From the human T2T-CHM13v2.0 reference genome, Homo sapiens: a stretch of DNA of 64,000 nt. The DNA is taken from assembly GCF_009914755.1 (NCBI RefSeq), contig NC_060948.1. One strand, written 5' to 3'. Within the stretch, counting starts at the first letter, position 1; each line of letters begins with the position of its first letter. Shown here in pieces: positions 781-38,530 of the stretch. Position numbers and translations under genes: made by a program. Below the pieces are notes generated by a model that searched no databases, was not told the DNA's origin, and saw only the letters and a program-made list of their open reading frames with translations.

Positions 781-3700
781 TAGTGCTGCAATACACATAC
801 GTGTGCATAGGTCTTTATAATAGAATTATTTATATTCTTTGGGTGTATAAACTGTAATGGGATTGCTGGGTCAAATGGTATTTCTGGTACTAGATGCTTG
901 AGGAATTGCCACACTGTCTTCCACAATGGTCAAACTAATTTACATTCCCAAAAAGAGTGTAAAGGCATTCCTGTTTCTCCACAGCCTCACCAGCATCTGT
1001 ATTTTCTTGACTTTTTAATAATTGCCTTTCTGACTGGCATAAGATGGTATCTCATTGTGGTTTTGATTTGTGTTTCTCTGAGATTAGTGATGTTGACCTT
1101 TTTTCAATGTTTATTGGCTGCATAAATGTCTTTTTTTGAGAAATGTCTGTTCATATCCTTTGCCTACTTTTTGATGGGGTTGTTTGTTTTTGTCTTGTAC
1201 ATTTGTTTAAGTTTCTCATAGATTCTGCATGTTAGCCCTTTGTCAGATGGATAGATTGCAAAGATTTTCTCCCATTCTGTATGTTGCCTGTTCATTCAGA
1301 TAATAGGTTCTTTTGATATGCAGAAGCTCTTTAGTTTAATTAAATCCCATTTGTCAATTTTGGCTTTTGTTGCAATTGCTTTTGGTGTTTTATTCATGAA
1401 TTCTTTTCTCATGCCTATGTCCTGAATGGTATTGCTTAGGTTTTCTCCTAGGGTTTTTATGGCTTTAGGTCTTACATTTAAGTCTTTAATCTCTCTTGAG
1501 TTAATTTTTGTATAAGGTGTAAGGAAGGGATCCAGTTTTAGTTCTCTGCATATGGCTAGCCAGTGTTCCTAACACCATTTATTAAATAGAGAATCCTTTC
1601 CCCATTGCTTGTTTTTGTCAGGTTTGTCAAAGATCAGATGGTTGTAGATGTGTAGTATTATTTCTGAGATCTGTGTTTTGTTCCATTAGTCTACGTATCT
1701 GTTTTGGTACCAGTACCAAATTTTGGTTACTGTAGCCTTGCAGTATAGAAGTCAGGTAGTGTGATGCCACCAGCTTTGTTCTTTTTGCTTAGGGTTGTCT
1801 TGGCTGTACAAGGTGTTCTTTCATTCCATATGAACTTTAAAGTAGTTTTTTTTTTTTTTATTCTGTGAAGAACATCAATGGTACTTTGATGGGAATAGCA
1901 CTGAATCTATAAATTGCCTTGGGCAGTAAGGCCATTTTTATAATAATGATTCTTCCTATCCATGAGGATGGAATGTTTTTCCATTAGTTTGTGTGCTGTC
2001 TTATTTCCCTGAGCATTGGTTTGTAGTTCTTCTTGAATAGGTCCTTCACATCCCTTGTTAACTGTATTCCTAGGTATTTTATTCTCTTTGTAGCAACCGT
2101 GAATGGGAGTTCATTCAAGATTTGGCTCTCTGCTTGTGTATTGCTGATGTAAAGGAATGCCTGGGATTTGGGCACATTAATTTTTGTATCCTGAGACTTT
2201 GCTGAAGTTGCTTATCAGCTAACGGAGTTTTTGGGCTGACATGATGGAGTTTTCTAAATGTAGAAATATCTCATCTGTAAACAGAGACAATTTGACTTCC
2301 TCCCTTCCTATGTAAATCTCTGGCCTGATTGCCTTGGCCAGAACTTCCAATATCATGTTGAGTAGGACGGCTAAGAGAGAGCATCCTTGTTTGTAGCAGG
2401 TTCCAAACTGAATGCTTCCAGCTTTTGCCCATCCAATATCATACTGGCTGCAGGTTTGTCATAAATAGCTCTTTTTATTTTGAGATATCTTCCATCAACA
2501 CCTAGTTTACTAAGTGTTTTTAACATGAAAGGATGTTGAATTTTATTGAAGGCCTCTTCTGCATCTATTATTGAAGGCCTCTTCTGCATCTATTGCTATA
2601 ATCATATGGTTTTGCTTTGGTTCTATTTATGTGATGGATTATGTTTATTGATTTACATATGTTGAACCAGGCTTGCATCTCAGGGATTAAGCTGACTTGA
2701 TCATTGTGGATGGATAAGTTTTTTGATGTTCTGCTGGATTTGGTTTGCCAGTACTTTATTGAGGATTTTCACATCAATGTTCATCACAGATATTGGTCTG
2801 AGGTTTTCTTTTTTTGTAGTGTCTCTGCCAAGTTTTGGTTATCAGGATGATGCTGGACTCATAACATGAAGTTAGGGAAGAGTACCTCCTTTTTAATTAT
2901 TTGGAATAGATTCAGAAGGAATGGTACTAGGTCTTCTTTGTACCTCTGGTAAAATTCAGCTGTGAATGTGTCTGGCCCTGGGCTTTTCTGGGGTTGGTAA
3001 GCTATGAATTATTGCCTCAATTTCAGAACGTGTTATTGGTCTATTCAGGGATTTGATCTCTTCTTGGTTTAGTCTTGGGGAGGTTCATGTGTCCAAGAAT
3101 TTACCCATTTCTTCTAAATTTTGTAGTTTATTTTTATAGAGGTGTTTATAGTACTCTCTGATGGTAGTTTCTATTTCTGTGGGGTCAGTGGCAATACCCC
3201 TTTATCATTGTTTATTGTGTCTATTTGATTCTTCTCTCTTTTATTGATCTAGCCAGCAGTATATTTTGTTAGTTTTTTCAAAAAAAAACAGCCCCTGCAT
3301 TCATTGAATTTTGGAGTGTTTTTTGTGTCTCTTTCTCCTTCAGTTCTGCTCTGATCTTAGTTATTTCTTGTCTCATGCTGGCTTTTGAATTAGTTTGCTC
3401 TTGCTTATCTAGCTCTTTTAATTATGATGTTAATTTCATTCGTATCACTCCTGTCTGTGTGAAGAGACCACCAAACAGTCTTTGTGTGAAGAACAAGGCT
3501 GTTTATTTCACCTGGTTTCAGACAAGCTGAGTCCAAAAAGAGAGTCAGTGAAGTGAGATAGGGATGGGGCCATTTTATGGGATTTGGGTAGGTAAAGGAA
3601 AATGAGTCAAAGGGGATTGTTCTTAGGCGGGGCAGGGGCGGGGTCACAAGGTGCTCAGTGGGGGAGCTTTTGAGCCAGGATGAGCCAAGAGAAGGAATTT

Positions 3701-6700
3701 CACAAGCTAATGTCATCAGTTAAGGCAGGAACAGGCCATTTTCCTGTCCTTTGTGGTGGAATGTCATCAGTTAAGGCAGGAACAGGCCATCTGGATGTGT
3801 AGGTGCAGGTCACAGGGGATATGATGGCTTATCTTGGGCTCAGAGGCCTGACAGTTAGGGTGTCATTTCAGATTTTTCTAGCCTTCTGATGTAGCATTTA
3901 GTGCCATAAATTTCCCTTTTGACACTACTTTAGCTGTGTCCCAGAGATTCTGGTATGTTGTCTCTTTCTTCTCATTGGTTTCAGAGAACTCCTTGATTTC
4001 TTCCTTAATTTACCCAGGAGTCATCCAGGAGCAGACTGTTCAACTTTTATGTAATTGGGCAGTTTTTATTGAGTTTCTTAATCTGAGTTTTAATTTGATT
4101 GCACTGTGATCTGAAGGACTGTTTGTTATGGTTTTACTTCTTTTGCATTTGCTGAGGAGTGTCTTACTTCCAATTACATAGTCAATTTAAGAAATAGTGC
4201 CATGTGGCACGGAGAAGAATGTATATTCTATTGATTTAGGGTGGAGCACTCCATAGATATTTATTAGGTCCACTAGATAATCAGAGTTGAGTTCAAGTTC
4301 AAGCTGATTATCCTTGTTAATTTTCTGTCTCATGGATCTGTCTAATGTTGACAGTAGGATGTTAAAGTCTCCCACTATTATTGTGTGGGAGTTTATGTCT
4401 CTTTGTAGGTCTATAGGAACTTGTTTTATAAATCTGAGTGCTCCTGTATTGGGTGCATATATATTTAGGATAGTTAGCTCTTCTTGTTGAATTGATCCTT
4501 TTGCTATTATGTATCGTTTGTCTTTTTTGATCTCTGTTGGTTCAAAGTATGTTTTTTTCAGAGGCTAGGATTGCAACCCCTGCTCTTTTTTTGCTTCCTA
4601 TTTGTTCATTTGCTTGGTACATTTTCCTCCATTCCTTTATTTTGAGACTATGTGTGTCTTTGCATAGGAGATGGTCTCCTAAGTAAAGCATACTGATGGG
4701 ACTTGACTCTTTATCCAATTTGCTAGTCTGTGTCTTTTAATTGGGATATTTAGCCCATTTACATTTAAGGTTAATACTCTTATGTGTGAATTCGGTCCAG
4801 TCATCATGATGCTAACTGGTTATTTTGCACACTAGTTGATGCAGTTTCTTCATAGTGTCATTGGTCTTTATATTTCAGTGTGTTTTTGCAGTTGGTGTTC
4901 TGGTTTTCCTTTACATATTTAGTGCTTCTTTCAGGAGCTCTCGCAAGGGCAGGCCTGGTGGTGATGAAACCCCTCAGCATTTGCTTCTCTGGAAAGGATT
5001 TTATTTCTCCTTCACGTATGAAGCTTAGTTTGGCTGGATATGAAATTCTTAGTTGAAAATTTTTTCTTTAAGAATGTTGAATATTAGCCCCTAATCTCTT
5101 CTGCTTTGCAAGGTTTCTGCTGATATGTCTGCTGTTACTCTTATGGGCTTTCCTTTTTTAGGTGACCTGGCCTCTCTCTCTGGCTTCCCTTAACATTTTT
5201 TCCTTCATTTCAACCTTGGAGAATCTGATGATTATATGTCTTGAGGTTGATCTTCTTGTGGAGTATCTTAGTGTTGTTCTTTATATTTCCTTAATATGCA
5301 TGTTGGCCTGTCTTGCTAGGTTGGGAGATTTCTGCTGGATAATGTCTGAAGTGAGTTTTCCAGTTTGATTCCATTCTCCCCATTTCCTTCAGGTACTCAA
5401 ATCAATCGTAGATTCAGTCTCTTTACATAGTCCCATATTTCTTGAAGGCTTTGCTTGTTTCTTTTCATTCTTCTTTCTCTAATCGTGTCTGCAAACCTTA
5501 TTTGAGCAAGGTGGCCTTCAAACTCATATCCTTTCTTCTGCATGGTTGATTTGGCTATGATACTTGTGTATGCTTCACAAAGTTCTCATGCTGTGTTTTT
5601 CAGCTCCATCATGTCACTTATGTAACTCTCTAAATTAGATATTCTAGTTAGCAGCTCCCCTAACCTTTTATCAAGGCTCTTAACTTCTTTGCATTGGGTT
5701 AGAACATGCTCCTTTAGCTCAGTGTACTTTCTTATTACCCATCTTCTGAAACCTACTTATATCATTTTATCCATCTCATCCTCCATCCAGTTTTGTGTCC
5801 TTGCTGGAGAGGCATTGCCATCATATGGAGGACAAGCACTCTGGCCTTCTGGGTTTTCAGCGTTTTTTTCATTGATTCTTTCTCATATTTATGGGTTTGT
5901 CTATTAACACTTTGAGGCTGCTGAGCCTGAACGGGCTTTTTGTGGGGACTTTTTGTGGTCATTGATGGTGTTGTTATTGGTTTCTGTTTGTATTTCTTTC
6001 AATGGTTTGATCCCTCGTCTGTAGGGCTGCTGTGATTTGCTGGGGGTTCACTTCACGCCCTATTCATGTGGTACACTCCCATGCTTGGAGATGTTACTCA
6101 AAGAGGCGGGGAAACAGCAAAGATGGGTGGTTGCTCCTTCTTCTGGGATCTCTGGCCTCTTGGGGCACCAACCTGATGCCAGTAGGACAGCTCCTCTATA
6201 GGGATCTGAAAACCCTTGTTGGTGGATCTTATCCAGTTGAGTAGCACAGGGAACAGGACCCATTTAATGAAGCACTTTGACTGTCTCTTGGTGTAGGGGT
6301 ATGCTTTGCTGGAGGGAAAATCACTCATCTGGGCTGCCTGGATTCTTCAGATCTGCCAGGAGGAAAGGCTAAGTCTGCTTGTCCCCAGAGACTGTGACCA
6401 CACCTCTAGGGGCTCAGAGCCAGGGAGACGAGGGTTCTGATATCTCCAACAACTGAGCCTCTGGCTGGAGTTGCTGGATTCCTCCAGGGAGGCCCACTCA
6501 TTGAGGAAGAATGGGTTGACCAGGCCTGAAGAGGTGCCCTGTCTGCAGTCTGCCACAGTTAGATTGTGTGGGACACCTCTTGGGACCAAGCTGTCCAGCT
6601 GTCCAGCCTCCCTGGCTCCAGCAGGGGAAAAGCATAGCCTGGGGCATAGAGATGGATGCCACCCTTCCCCAACTTGCGGAGCTTAGCGTGTTACGCAGCC

Positions 6701-30655: not shown

Positions 30656-30913
30656 AAACAAAATTCTGCGGGTATAAACAAGTTCACTAAGATTTGAAAG
30701 AAATTATTTAGCTTTTTTTCTGTAGGTTGAAGCATTAAAATCATACTGATATGGGGCCAGAATCTGGACCCATGTGTCTGAATAACAGAGTTTTCTTAGG
30801 AAATTGATCTGCTGTTTGATGGAAAATTGTAACGGGTTCTAAAAAGTTTATGAAAATTTTACCTTATGGTCAAACTAATTAAAACTCGATGGAAATATAA
30901 AATTTTATTTTAA

Positions 30914-32323
<1,410 letters not shown>

Positions 32324-33422
32324 GAGCATTCCCTCTGTTGTGGAAGAGTTCATTTCCTGTTGGCTGCAGGACTCAGGGCACTGGTTTCTTGCTAGCTGCT
32401 GGCTGGGGGGTTCCTGGGGCTGCCTTTTTTTCCTTGCTACATAGATGTTTGCTTCTTCAAGAGCATGTCTCTGGGAACCTTATCACGGGAGTGGCATCCC
32501 ATCTCCTCTGCCATATTCTCCTTGTTAGAAGCAAAACATAGGACCTACCCACAATTAAGAGGCCAGGATCCCACAAAAGGACAAGGATCATGAAGACCCC
32601 TGCCCAACCTGCCAAGCCTGTTCCATATACCTTGGGGTTGGGAGAAATGAGATAAGAAATAGTTAAAAAGCCAGCAGCATGGGAAATTTTGCTCCTTCAC
32701 AAGTTGGCCCACATTCACTCACCAATTCTCAGTCATCTGTTTAGACCTTTCATCTCAACAACCTGGAGCACTCACTGTTTCCCTAGAGCTTTAGGTGAAG
32801 ACCATGAAACAAGATCAAGAGAAAGACTGGTTTAAGTATCACTTAGTTATCTTCCTCCACTTGCAATTTTCAGCCCCAAAATAACTTTGAAGGAAAAAAA
32901 TCCCAGATTATTTACATATGCTCTCCATTTTTAACTACTGTTCTGTTTAAAACATTTAATATCCTCAGAAGCCTCATTAGAGTCGATTTAATTCATAGCA
33001 AGATATTGTATGTATTTTTGCAGCTATTAATGTCTGCTTAGGGAACTTTTGTTTTCACCTGAACTTTTAGAAGAAAGTTAAGCAAAATCAGTGTGCCTGG
33101 CTGACTTGTCACTGGTGGTGCTAGGTTCTTAATAATAAAATGGAGCTAAATGGACTTCCTCACATCAGCCAATAGGCTGGAAGACGAAACCAGAGACTTC
33201 CTTGAGGAGGTCTTTCCTTCTACGTGGCCTAATTGCGACCCAAACTCCTCATGTGAGAAGAGAGCTTTAGACAATTTTCACTGGTATCTCCTTGCAGGCA
33301 TCAAGAGAGCCGCTCGGAAACCCATAAACTTGTCTAAGATGACTGAAGTTGTCCAGGGGCCTGAAGAGTCACCAGGAGCATTTTAGAACAACTCCAGGAT
33401 GTTGAATGCTTGCATCCTGCAG

Positions 33423-33906
33423 TGAGGGAAGAGAGAGACCCTCTCATATTGTTTTATATTGCTTTATACTAGCACCTGTTTTAAGAAAAAAGCAAGGAAG
33501 TGAAATCAAAGGCAGCAGCCTGGTGCCAGGCACCAGACCCAAAACCAGGCCTGGGCCTGCCTGGCCTAAACCTAGTTATTAAAAATCAACTCATGACTTA
33601 GAACCCAATGTTATCCATAGATTCCAGACATTGTATAAAAGAACATTGTTAAACTCCCTGCTGTGTTCTGTTTCACTCTGACCACGAGTGCATGCAGCCC
33701 CATCGTGTATCCCCCAGATTGCTCAATGAATCACGACCCTTTCATGTGAAATCTTTAGTGTTGTGAGCCCTTAGAAGAGACAGAAATTGTGCACTTGAAG
33801 AGCTCAAATTTTAAGACAGTAGCTTGCTGATGCTCCCAGCTGAATAAAGCCCTTCCTTCTACAACTCCGTGTCTGAGAGGTTTTGTCTGTAGCTTCTCCT
33901 GCTACA
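33423..33906 (+). mobile_element. Solo LTR2-family (HERV-E/Harlequin, LTR2B-like) LTR inside HERV-T pol
   Basis: TG...CA termini (TGAGGGAAGAGAGAGACCCTCTC...CCTGCTACA), internal AATAAA, and a 4-bp TSD GCAG (33419-33422 / 33907-33910). Confidence 0.82.
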
Positions 33907-35681
33907 GCAGTATCAGAGTTTACTGTTAGATCAGCCTCTTTTGACTTTCTCTTCCATAAGGTGTTTAAATCTAGCTACTTTACTCCCTGATCCAAACTTC
34001 ACTACACCTGTCCATGACTGCCAGGAACTGTTAGAAACTAGGGAAACTGGCTGACCTGATCTCCAAGAAGTGTCCCTAAAGAAGGCAGATGCCAGCATGT
34101 TTATAAATGGTAGCTGCTTCCTCGAACAGGGAGTACGAAAGGCTTGTTCAGCCGTTACTACAGAGAGATAGTCTGTAAGCCCAAGCTCTACCAGCTGGCA
34201 CCTCAGCTCAGAGAGCTGAGTCGGTTGCCCTCACACAGGCTCTCTGATGAAGTAAAGACAAATGTATTAACATTTACACTAACAGTAGATATGCATTCGT
34301 TACTGTGCATTCGTTACTGAGCCTTCTATCAAGAGCATAGGCTACTCACCTCAGCAGGAAAGACTACCAAAAACAAAGAAGAAATTCTAGCCCTTCTTAA
34401 AGTTGTATGGCTCTGTCAGCAGGTGGCTGTAATTCACTGCAAAGGACATCAAAGAGAAGACACCGCCATTGCCCGTGGTAACCAGACAGCAGATTCTGCA
34501 GCATGTGAGGCAGTATGACTTCCAGTCATGCCTCTAACCTTATTGCCTGCCATATCTTTTCCACAGCCTGACTTACCGATCCCCTATACACAGCAGAAGA
34601 AATAAAACTGGCTTCAGATCTCCAGGCCAATAAAAATCAGAAAGGTTGGTGGATATTTCCTGACTCCAGAATCTTCATACCACAAGCTCGCCGGGAAACT
34701 TTAATCATTCATCTGCATTCTACCACCCATTTAGGAGGAGCAAAACTAGCCCAGCTCCTAAGGAGCCGTTTCAAGATCCCTCACCTTGAGAACGTAGCAG
34801 ATCAAGCAGCTCTCTGGTGTATGGTGTGCACTCAGGCAAAGCCCTAAACCCAGCTCAGGCCACAGCCTCTGAGGAAACTCACCAGGAGAAAGGTAGGAAA
34901 TTGACTTTAGAGAGATAAAACCATACCAGGCTAGGTACAAATACCTTCTGGTACTAGTAGACACTTTCTCCAGATAGACTGAGGCATTTGCTACCAAAAA
35001 TGAGACTGCCACCACAATAGTTAGGTATTTACTCAATGAAATCATCCCTCGATATAGGCTGCCTGCTGCCATAAGTTCCAATAATAAACTGACCTTCACC
35101 TTGTCCATAGCTCAGTCAGTCAGTAAAGCATCAAACATTCAATAGAAGCTCTATTGTGCCTATTGACCCCAGAGCTCTGGACAGGTAGAACGCATGAATC
35201 ACACCCTAAAAAGTACTCTTACAAAATTAATCTTAGAGACCAGTGAGAATTAGGTAAGACTCCTTCCTTTAGACCTTCTTAGAGTAAAATGCACTCCTTA
35301 CCAGGCTGGGTTTTTACCTTTTGAAATCATGTATGGGAAGGCACCGCCTATCTTGCCTAAGCTAAGGGACACTCATTTAGCAGAAATCTCACAAGCTAAT
35401 TTATTACAGTACCTACAGTCTCTCCAAAAAAGATGTGAGATATCATCCAGCCACTTGTCTGGGGAGCTCATTCCAATCCAGGTCCTGACAGGATGGGGCC
35501 CTGCCACTCATTCCAGCTGGGTGACCTGGTGTTTGTTACAAAGTTCCAGAAAGAAGGATACACTCCTGCTTGGAAAAGACCTCATACTGTCATCCTCACC
35601 ACACCTATGGGTCTGAAGGTGGATTCCAGCTTGGATTCATCACTCCCATATCAAAAAAGCCAGCAAAGGACAGCAGGAAAC

Positions 35682-37527
35682 ATAAGTTCCCAAGCCTAGG
35701 CCAAGCCCCTAAAATTGTGTCTAAGTCAAGTGAAGCCATTAGATTAATTCTTTTTATTTACCTCTCTTGTCTGTTTCCACCTGTTATGTCCTCTGCGCCT
35801 TCCTGTTCTTTTCTCCTCACTTCTTTCACAAGACGTGTATTTGCAAACCCTACGTGGAAGGCAGGAACCTCCAAGGAAGTTTCTTTTGCAGTTGATTTAT
35901 GTGCTTTGTTTCCAGAACCTACCCATACCCACAAAGACCAATGCAACCTGCTGGTCATAGGAGCAGGAAACTTCAACCTTGCAGCAGGATTTAGACACTC
36001 CAGGAGCCAGACTGGATGTGGGAGCTCCAAAGGTGCAGAAAAAGGACCCCAAAATGTTGACTTTTACCTCTGTCCTGGAAATCACCCTGACTCTAGTTGT
36101 CGAGATACTTACCAGTTTTTCTGCCCTGACTAGACATGGGTAACTTTAGCCACTTATCCTGGGGGATTAACCTGATCTTCAACTCTTTCCATAGCTTGTG
36201 CTTCCTGTCCTAGACTGTGTACTACAAAAAATTGTAATCCTCTTACTATAATCGTTCACAACCCTAATTCAGCTCAATGGTACTATGGCATGTCATGAGG
36301 ATTAAGGCTTTATATCCTGGGATTTGATGTTGGAACTATGTTCACCATCCAAAAAAAAATCTTAATCTCATGGAGGCCTCCTAAGCCAATTAAGCCTTTA
36401 ACTGATCTAGGCAACCCTATGTTCTAAAAACACCCAGACAAAAGCGATTTAACTCTTCTGCCACCATTCCTAGTTCCTAAACCCCAGCTGCAACGACATC
36501 TCCAACCCAGCCTGATGTCCATACTGGGGGGGTACTTCACCTCCTTAATCTCACCCAGCCTAAACTAGCTCAAGATTGTTGGCTATGCCTGAAGGACAAG
36601 CCCCCTTATTATGTGGGCTTAGGAGTAGAAGCCATGCTTAAAAGTGTTCCACTATCTTGTCATGCATGACCCCATGCCCTTATGCTAGGAGATGTGTCAT
36701 GTCTAGGAATGCTTCTTGTCTAATTAGCACTGGATATAACTTATCTGGTTCTCCCTTTCAGGCTACTTGTAATCAATCCCTGCTTACTTCCTTAAGTACT
36801 TCAGTCTCTTATCGGGCACCTAACAATACCTAGTTAGCCTGCACTTCAAGTTTCACTCGCTGCATCAATGGAACTGAACTAGGACATCTCCTGTGCACGT
36901 TAATTCCTGTACTTCCTCAGGTATTGTGTACAGTGGACCAGAAGGACAACTCCTCATCACTCCCACTGAATTGCATCCCAGGTTTCACTAAGCCGCCCTG
37001 CTCCTAGCTCCCCTCCTGGCCAGCCTTAGCATAGCTGGATCAGCAGCCATCAGCACAGCTGCCCTAGTTCAAGGAGAAACTAGACTAATGTCTCTGTCTC
37101 AACAGGTAGATGCTGATTTAAGCAACCTCCATCCAGCCATAGATATACTGCATACCCAAATAGAGTCTCTGGCTGAAGTAGTTCTTCCTCTCCCAAGAAG
37201 GTTTATGCACAGCCCTAGGAGAGAGTTGTTGCTTCTCTGCCAATCAGTCTGGAGTCATAAAAGATACTCTTCAAAATATTCGAGAAAATCTAGATAGACA
37301 CCAACAAAAGCGAGAAAATAACATCCCCTGGTATCAAAGCATGTTTAACTGGAATCCATGGCTAACTACTCTAGTCACAGGTAGCTGGACCCCTTCTCCT
37401 CCTGCTGTTAGGCTTAATCTTCAAGCTGTATATATTAAACTGGTTTCTTAATTTTGTAAAAACAGTGCATAGCTTCTGTCAAGCTTATGTATCTTAAAAC
37501 CCAATATGACTCCCTTGTTATAACTGA
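35682..37527 (+). pseudogene. Defective HERV-T env
   Basis: EAIRLILFIYLSC...GTSKEVSFAVDLC...FYLCPGNHPD, CWLC motif, fusion peptide LAXLSIAGSAA, SLSQQVDADLSNL, TM region. Start codon reads ATA; multiple stops and frameshifts. Confidence 0.88.
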
Positions 37528-37910
37528 GGAATCAACAATTTTATTCCACAAAAACACAAGTGAGGAATGTAATACCTAATCTTGTTTTTAACATGAATAG
37601 ACTCTCCATTAGCTATATAACCTTGTTTTAATATGAATAGACTCTCCCTTAGCTGAGAAAACCTGATGGACTCCATTTAGCTCCTTCATTTGCAAGACAT
37701 CAAGGACTCCTTACCCACCCCCTTCCTCAAGGAGTTAACTTGTGTAAGCTGACTCTTAGCATATCAAAGAGTCCAATTAACTGATAAGGTACTGTGGCAA
37801 GCAATGTCCCTAGTTCCCAGGAATTCACTCGAGAGATAGCACCATAAAGTCCCTGTGTTTCTGTCCAGCAGAACCCTCACACCTATCACTTTGTGATGAA
37901 TTTAAAGCCC

Positions 37911-38530
<620 letters not shown>

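What the first reader, a model, noticed from the sequence alone, without database searches (positions are those of the whole stretch)
33910..37570. HERV-T provirus carries an APOBEC3G-type GG>AG hypermutation signature
Seen: conserved Trp codons have become stops across pol and env. They are TAA 34176 (LWAQAL), TGA 34248, TAG 34894 (ERWEIDF), TAG 34975 (FSGWTEAF, with GGA>AGA next to it), TAG 35143 (IQWKL), TAG 35251 (ENWV), TAG 35697, TAG 36131 (CPDWT), TGA 36296 (MSWG) and TAG 36831 (NTWLAC). The env start ATG GGT reads ATA AGT (35682), several Gly codons read as Arg/Ser/Lys, and the PPT reads AAGTGAGGAA. Established: APOBEC3G deaminates minus-strand CC, giving plus-strand GG>AG, which is distinct from CpG decay. 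Inference: the provirus was inactivated by editing before integration and preserved on the non-recombining Y, a fossil record of innate restriction of HERV-T.
Basis: partly seen in the sequence, partly recalled or inferred. Interest (0 to 1): 0.8.

Follow-up and report, generated by a model that had tools for sequence, protein, structure and literature searches.

The report
APOBEC3G-edited HERV-T fragment on Y
A broken piece of the extinct retrovirus HERV-T inside an AMELY intron on the Y chromosome really does carry the GG-to-AG mutation scar left by the host enzyme APOBEC3G, but such scars are already known, including in HERV-T.

Summary
All ten stop codons and the altered env start are at the stated coordinates. 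Each stop sits in a codon column where 11-12 of 14 other human HERV-T copies have a Trp codon, and none is shared by more than 3 copies.

I compared the window copy with 14 near-full-length copies from the same genome, without building a consensus. It has 61 private non-CpG G>A changes (others 14-35), 13 A>G and 41 C>T. The excess is confined to GG sites: 37 of 138, against 24 of 390 at GA/GT/GC (OR 5.6, p = 1.2e-9). The mirror-strand control is flat at 13 of 218. GGG is hit most (12 of 26). The result holds for four different polarising sets.

The edits are independent of the published hypermutated HERV-T2 lineage.

The best explanation is APOBEC3G-type deamination of minus-strand cDNA before integration.

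The element is a fragment, not a provirus. The Y location is incidental. APOBEC3 hypermutation of HERV-T was reported by Blanco-Melo et al. 2017. This is a new member of a known kind, of modest interest.

The parts
33156..33399 (+). gag capsid fragment of the HERV-T element. It carries the same GG-biased G>A pattern.
   Evidence: Pfam Gag_p30, E = 1.4e-11. It is 79-85% identical to the gag of 11 relatives. Summed over those 11 non-independent pairs, GG is 57 of 194 against 54 of 410 at other G sites.
33423..33913 (.). Nested multi-copy LTR-like repeat of about 485 bp, sitting where relatives have about 2.25 kb of gag-pro-RT. It is not part of the edited virus and was used as a control.
Evidence: the 40 best-scoring of 2367 candidate places were scored, and the full-length matches are 86-89% identical; the flanks map to positions 4603 and 6855 of relative L003's upstream stretch; no GG bias (2 of 14 against 4 of 71), low power.
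33907..35681 (+). pol remnant (RNase H and integrase), with at least three frame changes and many stops.
Evidence: Pfam: RNase_H 34176-34512 split over two frames, Integrase_H2C2 34677-34844, rve 34876-35169, MLVIN_C 35505-35627.
35682..37557 (+). env remnant. The start codon is altered by two private G>A changes, and the reading frame is spread over three frames.
   Evidence: Pfam TLV_coat in three frames, 36442-37379. The private G>A at 35684 and 35685 are in the list. Four of the ten Trp-type stops lie here.
37558..37567 (+). Polypurine tract with one G>A inside its G-run (37563).
   Evidence: Short alignment of natural copies.
37568..37913 (+). Partial 3' LTR (346 bp), cut off by a young L1-like repeat that starts at 37911. 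The rest of the LTR is not in the window.
   Evidence: No G>A excess here (2 G>A, 5 C>T, 3 A>G over 274 polarised sites), but only 5 polarisable GG sites.

Best explanation
**Mechanism.** The HERV-T genome that gave rise to this insertion was deaminated by an APOBEC3G-type cytidine deaminase during reverse transcription. The enzyme is packaged into the virion. It converts C to U in CC motifs of the single-stranded minus-strand cDNA. Copying into the plus strand then fixes GG>AG.

**Outcome.** The edited DNA, already full of Trp-to-stop and Gly-to-Arg/Ser/Lys changes, integrated into the germline Y chromosome and was fixed as a dead copy. Ordinary decay followed: CpG and other substitutions, 13 frame-breaking indels, a 2.25-kb loss at a nested repeat, and an L1 insertion that cut the 3' LTR.

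**Shown here.** The strand-specific, GG-specific and copy-private G>A excess.

**Inferred.** The enzyme's identity (from context only) and the timing before integration (from the known mechanism).
For: **Composition.** Lowest G (0.190), highest A (0.287) and fewest GG (126, against 140-174) of 15 copies, with CC unremarkable.

**Direction.** Summed over 14 pairwise comparisons outside CpG, G>A: A>G is 1778: 1124 (1.58, the highest of 15 copies; others 0.68-1.27). C>T: T>C is 1.11.

**Private changes.** 61 G>A (others 14-35), 13 A>G.

**Context.**
- GG 37 of 138, GA 10 of 136, GT 10 of 118, GC 4 of 136 (OR 5.6, p = 1.2e-9).
- Mirror-strand CC is 13 of 218. GG against mirror CC gives p = 7e-8.
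- About 29 excess events among the polarised sites.
- Fine context fits APOBEC3G: GGG 12 of 26, TGG 16 of 52, and C at +1 the least hit. Compare the abstract of PMC3909203 in the listing.

**Robustness.** OR 2.8-4.3 and p from 1.6e-3 to 2e-7 with four polarising sets.

**Controls.**
- 11 of the 14 other copies show no bias (p >= 0.11), including the Y-linked L004 and L016.
- A Hypermut-style GRD test gives p = 0.0015.

**Coding consequences.** 10 of 21 Trp columns are stops. Gly first-position changes number 18 against 1 second-position change.

**Extent.** The gag fragment shows the same bias.

**No sibling copy.** The best relative is 86% identical. The edits are statistically independent of those in the T2 copy L050.

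**Enzyme availability.** Double-domain A3G exists in simian primates (PMC6955324, passages).
Against: - No 5'-to-3' gradient toward the polypurine tract. GG hits per bin are 7/28, 13/30, 7/28, 5/25 and 5/26.
- The LTR shows no excess, though it has only 5 polarised GG sites.
- 37 of the 63 G>A sites are shared with one or two other copies, spread over 13 copies. I read this as recurrent hits at favoured sites, but it also shows that the polarisation is imperfect.
- Direction was inferred from agreement among paralogous copies, not from a true ancestor or orthologues.
- The window copy also has a long terminal branch (0.096) and a highish C>T count (41), so part of its G>A load is ordinary decay.
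- Enzyme identity rests on dinucleotide context alone.
Confidence: 0.87

Rival explanations
1. The edits were made in an earlier replication cycle. On this view the insertion is a copy of an already hypermutated genome that was mobilised in trans, as proposed in print for the HERV-T2 clade. The scar would then be inherited, not made when this provirus formed.
For: Blanco-Melo 2017 states that T2 derives from one hypermutated element that expanded by complementation in trans. L050, a catalogued T2 copy, is heavily edited (GG 58 of 84) and has A at 21 of the 38 window-edited sites it covers. The catalogue lists 558 bp of this locus's pol under T2.
Against: At the 82 GG sites covered by both copies, 19 are edited in both, 5 in the window only, 38 in L050 only and 20 in neither (OR 2.0, p = 0.30), which fits independence. 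At non-G columns the window is 84.5% identical to L050, while L007 is 91.7%. No copy in this genome is more than 86% identical to the window copy. The tables against L003 and L009 also fit independence.
Confidence: 0.07
2. Ordinary post-integration decay produced the pattern, through chance, regional or Y-specific mutation bias, transcription- or replication-linked strand asymmetry, or nuclear deaminases acting on genomic DNA.
For: The copy is old (terminal branch 0.096). It has many non-G>A changes: 41 C>T, 45 transversions and 7 C>T-type stops. It lies antisense in an AMELY intron.
Against: The excess is confined to GG (27%), while other G sites (6.2%) match mirror-strand C sites (6.0%). The Y-linked copies L004 and L016 and the nested LTR show no such bias. 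Known strand asymmetries are small and not GG-specific, and the other human APOBEC3 enzymes and AID prefer other contexts (established knowledge, recalled).
Confidence: 0.03
3. Artefact of method: misalignment, or a wrong direction call from using paralogous copies chosen by similarity to the window.
For: Direction was set by 80% or greater agreement among 14 paralogues. Clades differ by 10-20%. Three of the reference copies show some editing of their own.
Against: The raw pairwise counts need no direction call and show the same asymmetry. So does raw composition. Four different reference sets agree. The identical procedure gives null results for 11 of 14 other copies and for the mirror strand.
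Confidence: 0.03

Closest known systems
Hypermutated founder of the HERV-T2 clade (Blanco-Melo, Gifford, Bieniasz 2017, eLife, PMC5388530)
   Same: Same virus family, same host lineage, and the same kind of scar. I reproduced heavy editing in one catalogued T2 copy, L050: GG 58 of 84 and GA 20 of 84.
   Different: - The window's event is separate and lighter (27% of GG sites against 69%).
- It is GG-only, whereas L050 also has GA hits.
- It left a single copy rather than a clade.
- The catalogue lists the Y locus only as 'pol' fragments, so it was probably not among the 49 gag-pol-env sequences tested.
- I could not see figure supplement 1B, which holds their results.
APOBEC3-inactivated endogenous gammaretroviruses of chimpanzee and rhesus macaque (Perez-Caballero, Soll, Bieniasz 2008, PMC2564838; abstract read)
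   Same: Fossil gammaretroviruses in Old World primates, with evidence of inactivation by APOBEC3 deaminases.
   Different: Those are different, younger virus groups that are absent from the human germline. The responsible deaminase varied by virus and host.
Genome-wide APOBEC3 footprints in human ERVs (Ito, Gifford, Sato 2020, PMC6955324, passages; Knisbacher and Levanon 2016, PMC4866542, passages)
   Same: Human ERVs preferentially show GG>AG or GA>AA changes, and some are hypermutated.
   Different: These are surveys. Neither main text mentions HERV-T, HERVS71 or LTR6. Their supplements were not opened and may list this locus.
Hypermutated HERV-K(HML-2) proviruses (Lee, Malim, Bieniasz 2008; Armitage et al. 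2008).
   Same: Single human proviruses with an APOBEC3G-type GG>AG load and Trp-to-stop changes.
   Different: These are betaretrovirus-like and much younger, and their editing was reproduced experimentally.

Membership tests
HERV-T (HERVS71) endogenous gammaretrovirus | Nucleotide similarity to catalogued HERV-T proviruses | tested here: met
   79-86% identity over 3.5 kb to 14 copies. L006, L008, L009 and L014 coincide by chromosome, strand and order with catalogued T3 proviruses, L016 with the T1 provirus on chrY, and L050 with a T2 provirus.
HERV-T (HERVS71) endogenous gammaretrovirus | Gammaretroviral gene content in gag-pol-env order | tested here: met
   Gag_p30, RNase_H, Integrase_H2C2, rve, MLVIN_C and TLV_coat occur in that order. 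Protease and RT are absent.
HERV-T (HERVS71) endogenous gammaretrovirus | Clade-specific LTR (LTR6A, LTR6B or the T1 type) | tested here: inconclusive
   The partial LTR is 84-90% identical to LTRs at L002, L003 and three solo copies. No named repeat library was available. In the tree the copy sits with L004 and L002, between the T3 group and the T1/T2 group.
APOBEC3G-hypermutated provirus | Plus-strand G>A excess over A>G and over C>T, outside CpG | tested here: met
   61 G>A against 13 A>G. 61 of 528 G sites against 41 of 714 C sites (p = 3e-4).
APOBEC3G-hypermutated provirus | GG dinucleotide context, absent on the mirror strand | tested here: met
   GG 37 of 138 against 24 of 390 at other G sites (p = 1.2e-9). 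Mirror CC 13 of 218.
APOBEC3G-hypermutated provirus | Trp codons turned into stops | tested here: met
   10 of 21 in the window against 22 of 289 in the other copies.
APOBEC3G-hypermutated provirus | Changes private to the copy, not inherited from the family | tested here: met
   No sibling copy above 86% identity. The edits are independent of L050, L003 and L009.
APOBEC3G-hypermutated provirus | Editing gradient rising toward the polypurine tract and low in the LTR | tested here: inconclusive
   No gradient over five bins. The LTR has no excess but only 5 GG sites.
APOBEC3G-hypermutated provirus | The same G>A states present in all orthologous copies, showing editing before integration | not testable with these tools
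   No ape genomes are held. The chimpanzee chrY rows of the T3 sheet show no matching fragment. That settles nothing.

The most novel reading that the evidence does not exclude
HERV-T was hit by APOBEC3G-type editing on several separate occasions in different lineages. Candidates are this Y copy, the T2 founder (L050 group), L003 on chr6 and probably L009 on chr7. That would make deaminase pressure a sustained companion of the virus over its roughly 25 million years of activity, alongside the env co-option proposed for its extinction. A corollary is that convergent G>A changes may mislead clade assignment of fragments. This locus's pol is listed under both T2 and T3.
Probability: 0.45. Interest if true: 0.35.

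Novelty: new member of a known kind. Interest (0 to 1): 0.25.

Why it matters
It adds one well-supported, independent APOBEC3G-type editing event to the fossil record of HERV-T. It also shows that the event can be demonstrated from copy-by-copy comparison alone, without a family consensus. It does not change what is known. APOBEC3 editing of endogenous retroviruses, and of HERV-T in particular, is already in print. Its main practical use is as a datable marker if ape Y orthologues are examined.

Tried and rejected
**Controls that were tried but lacked power.**
- Nested-LTR control: only 14 GG sites.
- LTR test with the copies in hand, then with three closer solo LTRs: only 5 polarisable GG sites.

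**Tests that found nothing.**
- Editing gradient: none seen.
- Search of the whole window for displaced 5' LTR, leader, protease or RT pieces: none, only Alu matches.
- Chimpanzee Y orthologue in the published catalogue: no matching row in the T3 sheet. The T1 and T2 chimpanzee rows were not all read.

**Work that had to be redone.**
- First alignment: unusable because minus-strand loci had not been turned. Redone.
- One search used a mistyped pooled count (25 instead of 22). Corrected.

- a literature search failed on a two-letter term.

**Rows left out.**
- L005, identical to L004.
- The partial copies L017-L020, left out of the main alignment and added only.
- Of the 84 matches, only 20 were cut as loci. 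14 of them plus the window formed the main set.
Full report
**What is at the locus**

The window is chrY:6510001-6574000 of T2T-CHM13 (hub note; one search places it at G000:C24).

I compared the window with related copies from the same genome and scanned read-through translations against Pfam with X at stops. The HERV-T material in the window consists of:
- a 245-bp gag capsid piece (33156-33399, Gag_p30);
- a pol remnant from 33907, with RNase_H 34176-34512, Integrase_H2C2 34677-34844, rve 34876-35169 and MLVIN_C 35505-35627;
- an env remnant (35682 to about 37557, TLV_coat in three frames);
- a polypurine tract (37558-37567);
- 346 bp of the 3' LTR (37568-37913).

Between the gag piece and pol lies a multi-copy LTR-like repeat of about 485 bp (33423-33913). 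The 40 best-scoring of 2367 candidate places were scored, and the full-length matches are 86-89% identical. It occupies the place of about 2.25 kb that relatives have. From 37911 a young L1-like repeat takes over, 94-96% identical to the 39 other best-scoring places. No 5' LTR, leader, protease, RT or LTR remainder is found anywhere in the 64 kb. So this is a fragment, not a provirus. It lies antisense in an AMELY intron.

**How the test was done**

None is held here, and building one is not mine to do. I therefore compared natural copies with each other.

One search found 84 matches to window 34000-37500 in the window's own assembly, and 20 were cut as loci. L002-L016 are near-full-length. 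L005 is identical to L004 and was dropped. The window copy and the 14 others were aligned.

Differences were counted in two ways:
- pairwise, which needs no direction call;
- as 'private' changes, where one copy differs from a base held by at least 80% of the others.

Sites in CpG were set aside. Every copy was put through the same procedure as a control. The complementary-strand equivalent (C>T after C) served as a mirror control.

**Results**

*Composition.* The window copy has the lowest G (0.190; others 0.197-0.217), the highest A (0.287) and the fewest GG (126; others 140-174). Its CC count (209) is ordinary.

*Pairwise counts.* G>A: A>G is 1778: 1124, a ratio of 1.58. This is the highest of the 15 copies (others 0.68-1.27). 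Against the nearest relatives L002, L004 and L006 the ratio is 2.2-2.5. C>T: T>C is 1.11.

*Private changes.*

| Class (non-CpG) | Window copy | Other 14 copies |
|---|---|---|
| G>A | 61 | 14-35 |
| A>G | 13 | 15-34 |
| C>T | 41 | 21-54 |
| T>C | 17 | 6-36 |
| Transversions | 45 | 23-65 |

*Context of the private G>A changes.*

| Context | Changed / available |
|---|---|
| GG | 37 / 138 |
| GA | 10 / 136 |
| GT | 10 / 118 |
| GC | 4 / 136 |
| Mirror strand, CC | 13 / 218 |
| Mirror strand, other three contexts | 8 / 186, 11 / 157, 9 / 153 |

- GG against the rest gives OR 5.6, p = 1.2e-9.
- GG against mirror CC gives p = 7e-8.
- The excess amounts to about 29 events among the polarised sites.
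- Within GG, GGG is hit most (12 of 26) and TGG next (16 of 52). This fits the published preference of APOBEC3G (abstract of PMC3909203 in the listing).
- GA is not raised above GT, so there is no sign of the GA-preferring enzymes.
- A Hypermut-style GRD test gives p = 0.0015.

*Robustness.* The bias survives four different polarising sets: the three nearest copies, the T3 group, the T1/T2 group, and unanimity of all 14. OR is 2.8-4.3 and p runs from 1.6e-3 to 2e-7.

*Other parts of the element.* The gag fragment shows the same bias: GG 57 of 194 against 54 of 410, summed over 11 non-independent pairs.

*Other copies.* Eleven of the 14 other copies are null (p >= 0.11). These include two other Y-linked copies, L004 and L016.

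**Coding consequences**

- In 1150 codon columns the window copy has 20 in-frame stops, the most of any copy.
Seven lie where the others have CAA/CAG/CGA. Three are of other kinds.
- 10 of 21 conserved Trp columns are stops, against 22 of 289 in the others pooled (p = 5e-6).
- Of 73 conserved Gly columns, 18 read Arg/Ser/Lys. These are first-position changes, which are always in a GG context. Only 1 reads Glu. The others pooled have 73 of 982.
- The env start carries two private G>A changes (one search list).
- The polypurine tract carries one.
- The copy also has 13 private frame-breaking indels.

**Results that do not fit neatly**

- There is no rise of editing toward the polypurine tract. 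The five bins give 7/28, 13/30, 7/28, 5/25 and 5/26.
- The LTR shows no G>A excess, but it has only 5 polarisable GG sites.
- 37 of the 63 G>A sites are shared with one or two other copies, spread over 13 copies.
- The copy sits on a long terminal branch (0.096) and has a highish C>T count.

**Is it the published hypermutated lineage?**

Blanco-Melo et al. 2017 (PMC5388530) define clades T1-T3. [quoted passage not shown] They ran Hypermut 2.0 on 49 gag-pol-env sequences. I saw passages and parts 2, 7, 16, 17 and 19 of supplementary file 1.

The catalogue uses HuRef coordinates. By chromosome, strand and order I infer the following:
- L006, L008, L009 and L014 are T3.
- L016 is the T1 provirus on chrY.
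- L050 is a T2 provirus on chr3.
- This locus is listed only as two overlapping 'pol' fragments on chrY, one in T3 (1,110 bp) and one in T2 (558 bp).

It was therefore probably not among the 49 sequences tested. Their figure supplement 1B could not be viewed.

L050 is massively edited: GG 58 of 84, GA 20 of 84, GT 3 of 68 and GC 3 of 74. It has A at 21 of the 38 window-edited sites it covers. The formal table shows this is not shared ancestry. At 82 shared GG sites, 19 are edited in both copies, 5 in the window only, 38 in L050 only and 20 in neither (OR 2.0, p = 0.30). At non-G columns L050 is nearest L007 (91.7%), not the window copy (84.5%). No copy in this genome is more than 86% identical to the window copy. 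The window's editing is therefore a separate event.

**Interpretation**

The pattern is strand-specific, GG-specific and private to one copy, and its consequences are Trp-to-stop and Gly-to-Arg/Ser/Lys changes. This is the accepted signature of APOBEC3G acting on minus-strand cDNA during reverse transcription (established knowledge; PMC6955324 passages, for human ERVs and for the presence of double-domain A3G in simians).

Both the timing before integration and the enzyme's identity are inferences. The test that would show the timing needs ape Y orthologues, and these are not held here.

The age is poorly constrained. There is no LTR pair. The terminal branch and the nested repeats suggest tens of millions of years.

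None of the 84 matches lies on the X. The Y location appears incidental, because edited copies also lie on chr3, chr6 and chr7.

**Novelty**

I found no paper naming this Y locus as hypermutated. The searches were:
- 'HERV-T' with 'APOBEC3G', 11 papers;
- 262 papers held at least 3 of the 4 terms, 20 listed;
-.

The main texts of PMC6955324 and PMC4866542 do not mention HERV-T, HERVS71 or LTR6. Their supplements, and those of Anwar et al. 2013 (recalled, not held), were not seen and may list it.

The kind of event is well known, and it is known for this virus family. This is a new member of a known kind.

Noticed in passing
L050 (G000:C3:128568912-128570996), and the other one search matches with the same pattern (query 1-359, 417-2475, 3254-3501) on chr3, 7, 8, 11 and 12: A multi-copy group with shared internal deletions. 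The one member examined is massively G>A edited (GG 58 of 84, GA 20 of 84, GT 3 of 68, GC 3 of 74). It coincides with a catalogued HERV-T2 provirus, which fits the published hypermutated T2 founder. Unlike the window copy, it also has GA-context hits.
   Followed up: partly
L003 (G000:C6:28641622-28645153) and L009 (G000:C7:135861820-135865383): Two further copies show a GG-biased private G>A load. L003 has 18 of 136 (OR 4.4, p = 8.6e-5). L009 has 15 of 135 (p = 0.026) and 7 of 22 Trp columns as stops. Both are statistically independent of the window's edits.
   Followed up: partly
window 33399-33913: The nested LTR-like repeat is not a simple insertion. Its two flanks correspond to HERV-T positions about 2.25 kb apart in relatives, so a deletion or a recombination between two nested elements accompanied it. 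23 bases (33400-33422) are unassigned.
   Followed up: no
window 37911-38450 and beyond: A young L1-like repeat, 94-96% identical to the 39 other best-scoring places, cuts the 3' LTR. The LTR remainder is nowhere in the window, so the insertion came with a loss or a rearrangement.
   Followed up: no
window 33907-34051: This 145-bp stretch is 95% identical to L003, while the element as a whole is 83% identical to it. Unexplained. It may be local conservation or an old exchange between copies.
   Followed up: no
Catalogue of PMC5388530, HuRef chrY 4318881-4319990 (T3) and 4319394-4319951 (T2): The same stretch of this locus's pol is listed under two clades. A possible cause is that convergent G>A changes make an edited fragment resemble the edited T2 reference. 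Not tested.
   Followed up: no
G000:C24 25029607-25033126 and 26649560-26653079; 17108152-17110515 and 17287919-17290282: Two pairs of Y-linked HERV-T copies in opposite or matching orientation with identical scores. L004 and L005 are 100% identical, as expected for Y palindrome arms.
   Followed up: no
window 30900-32330: Four Alu-like copies in the same orientation lie close together just upstream of the HERV-T fragment.
   Followed up: no
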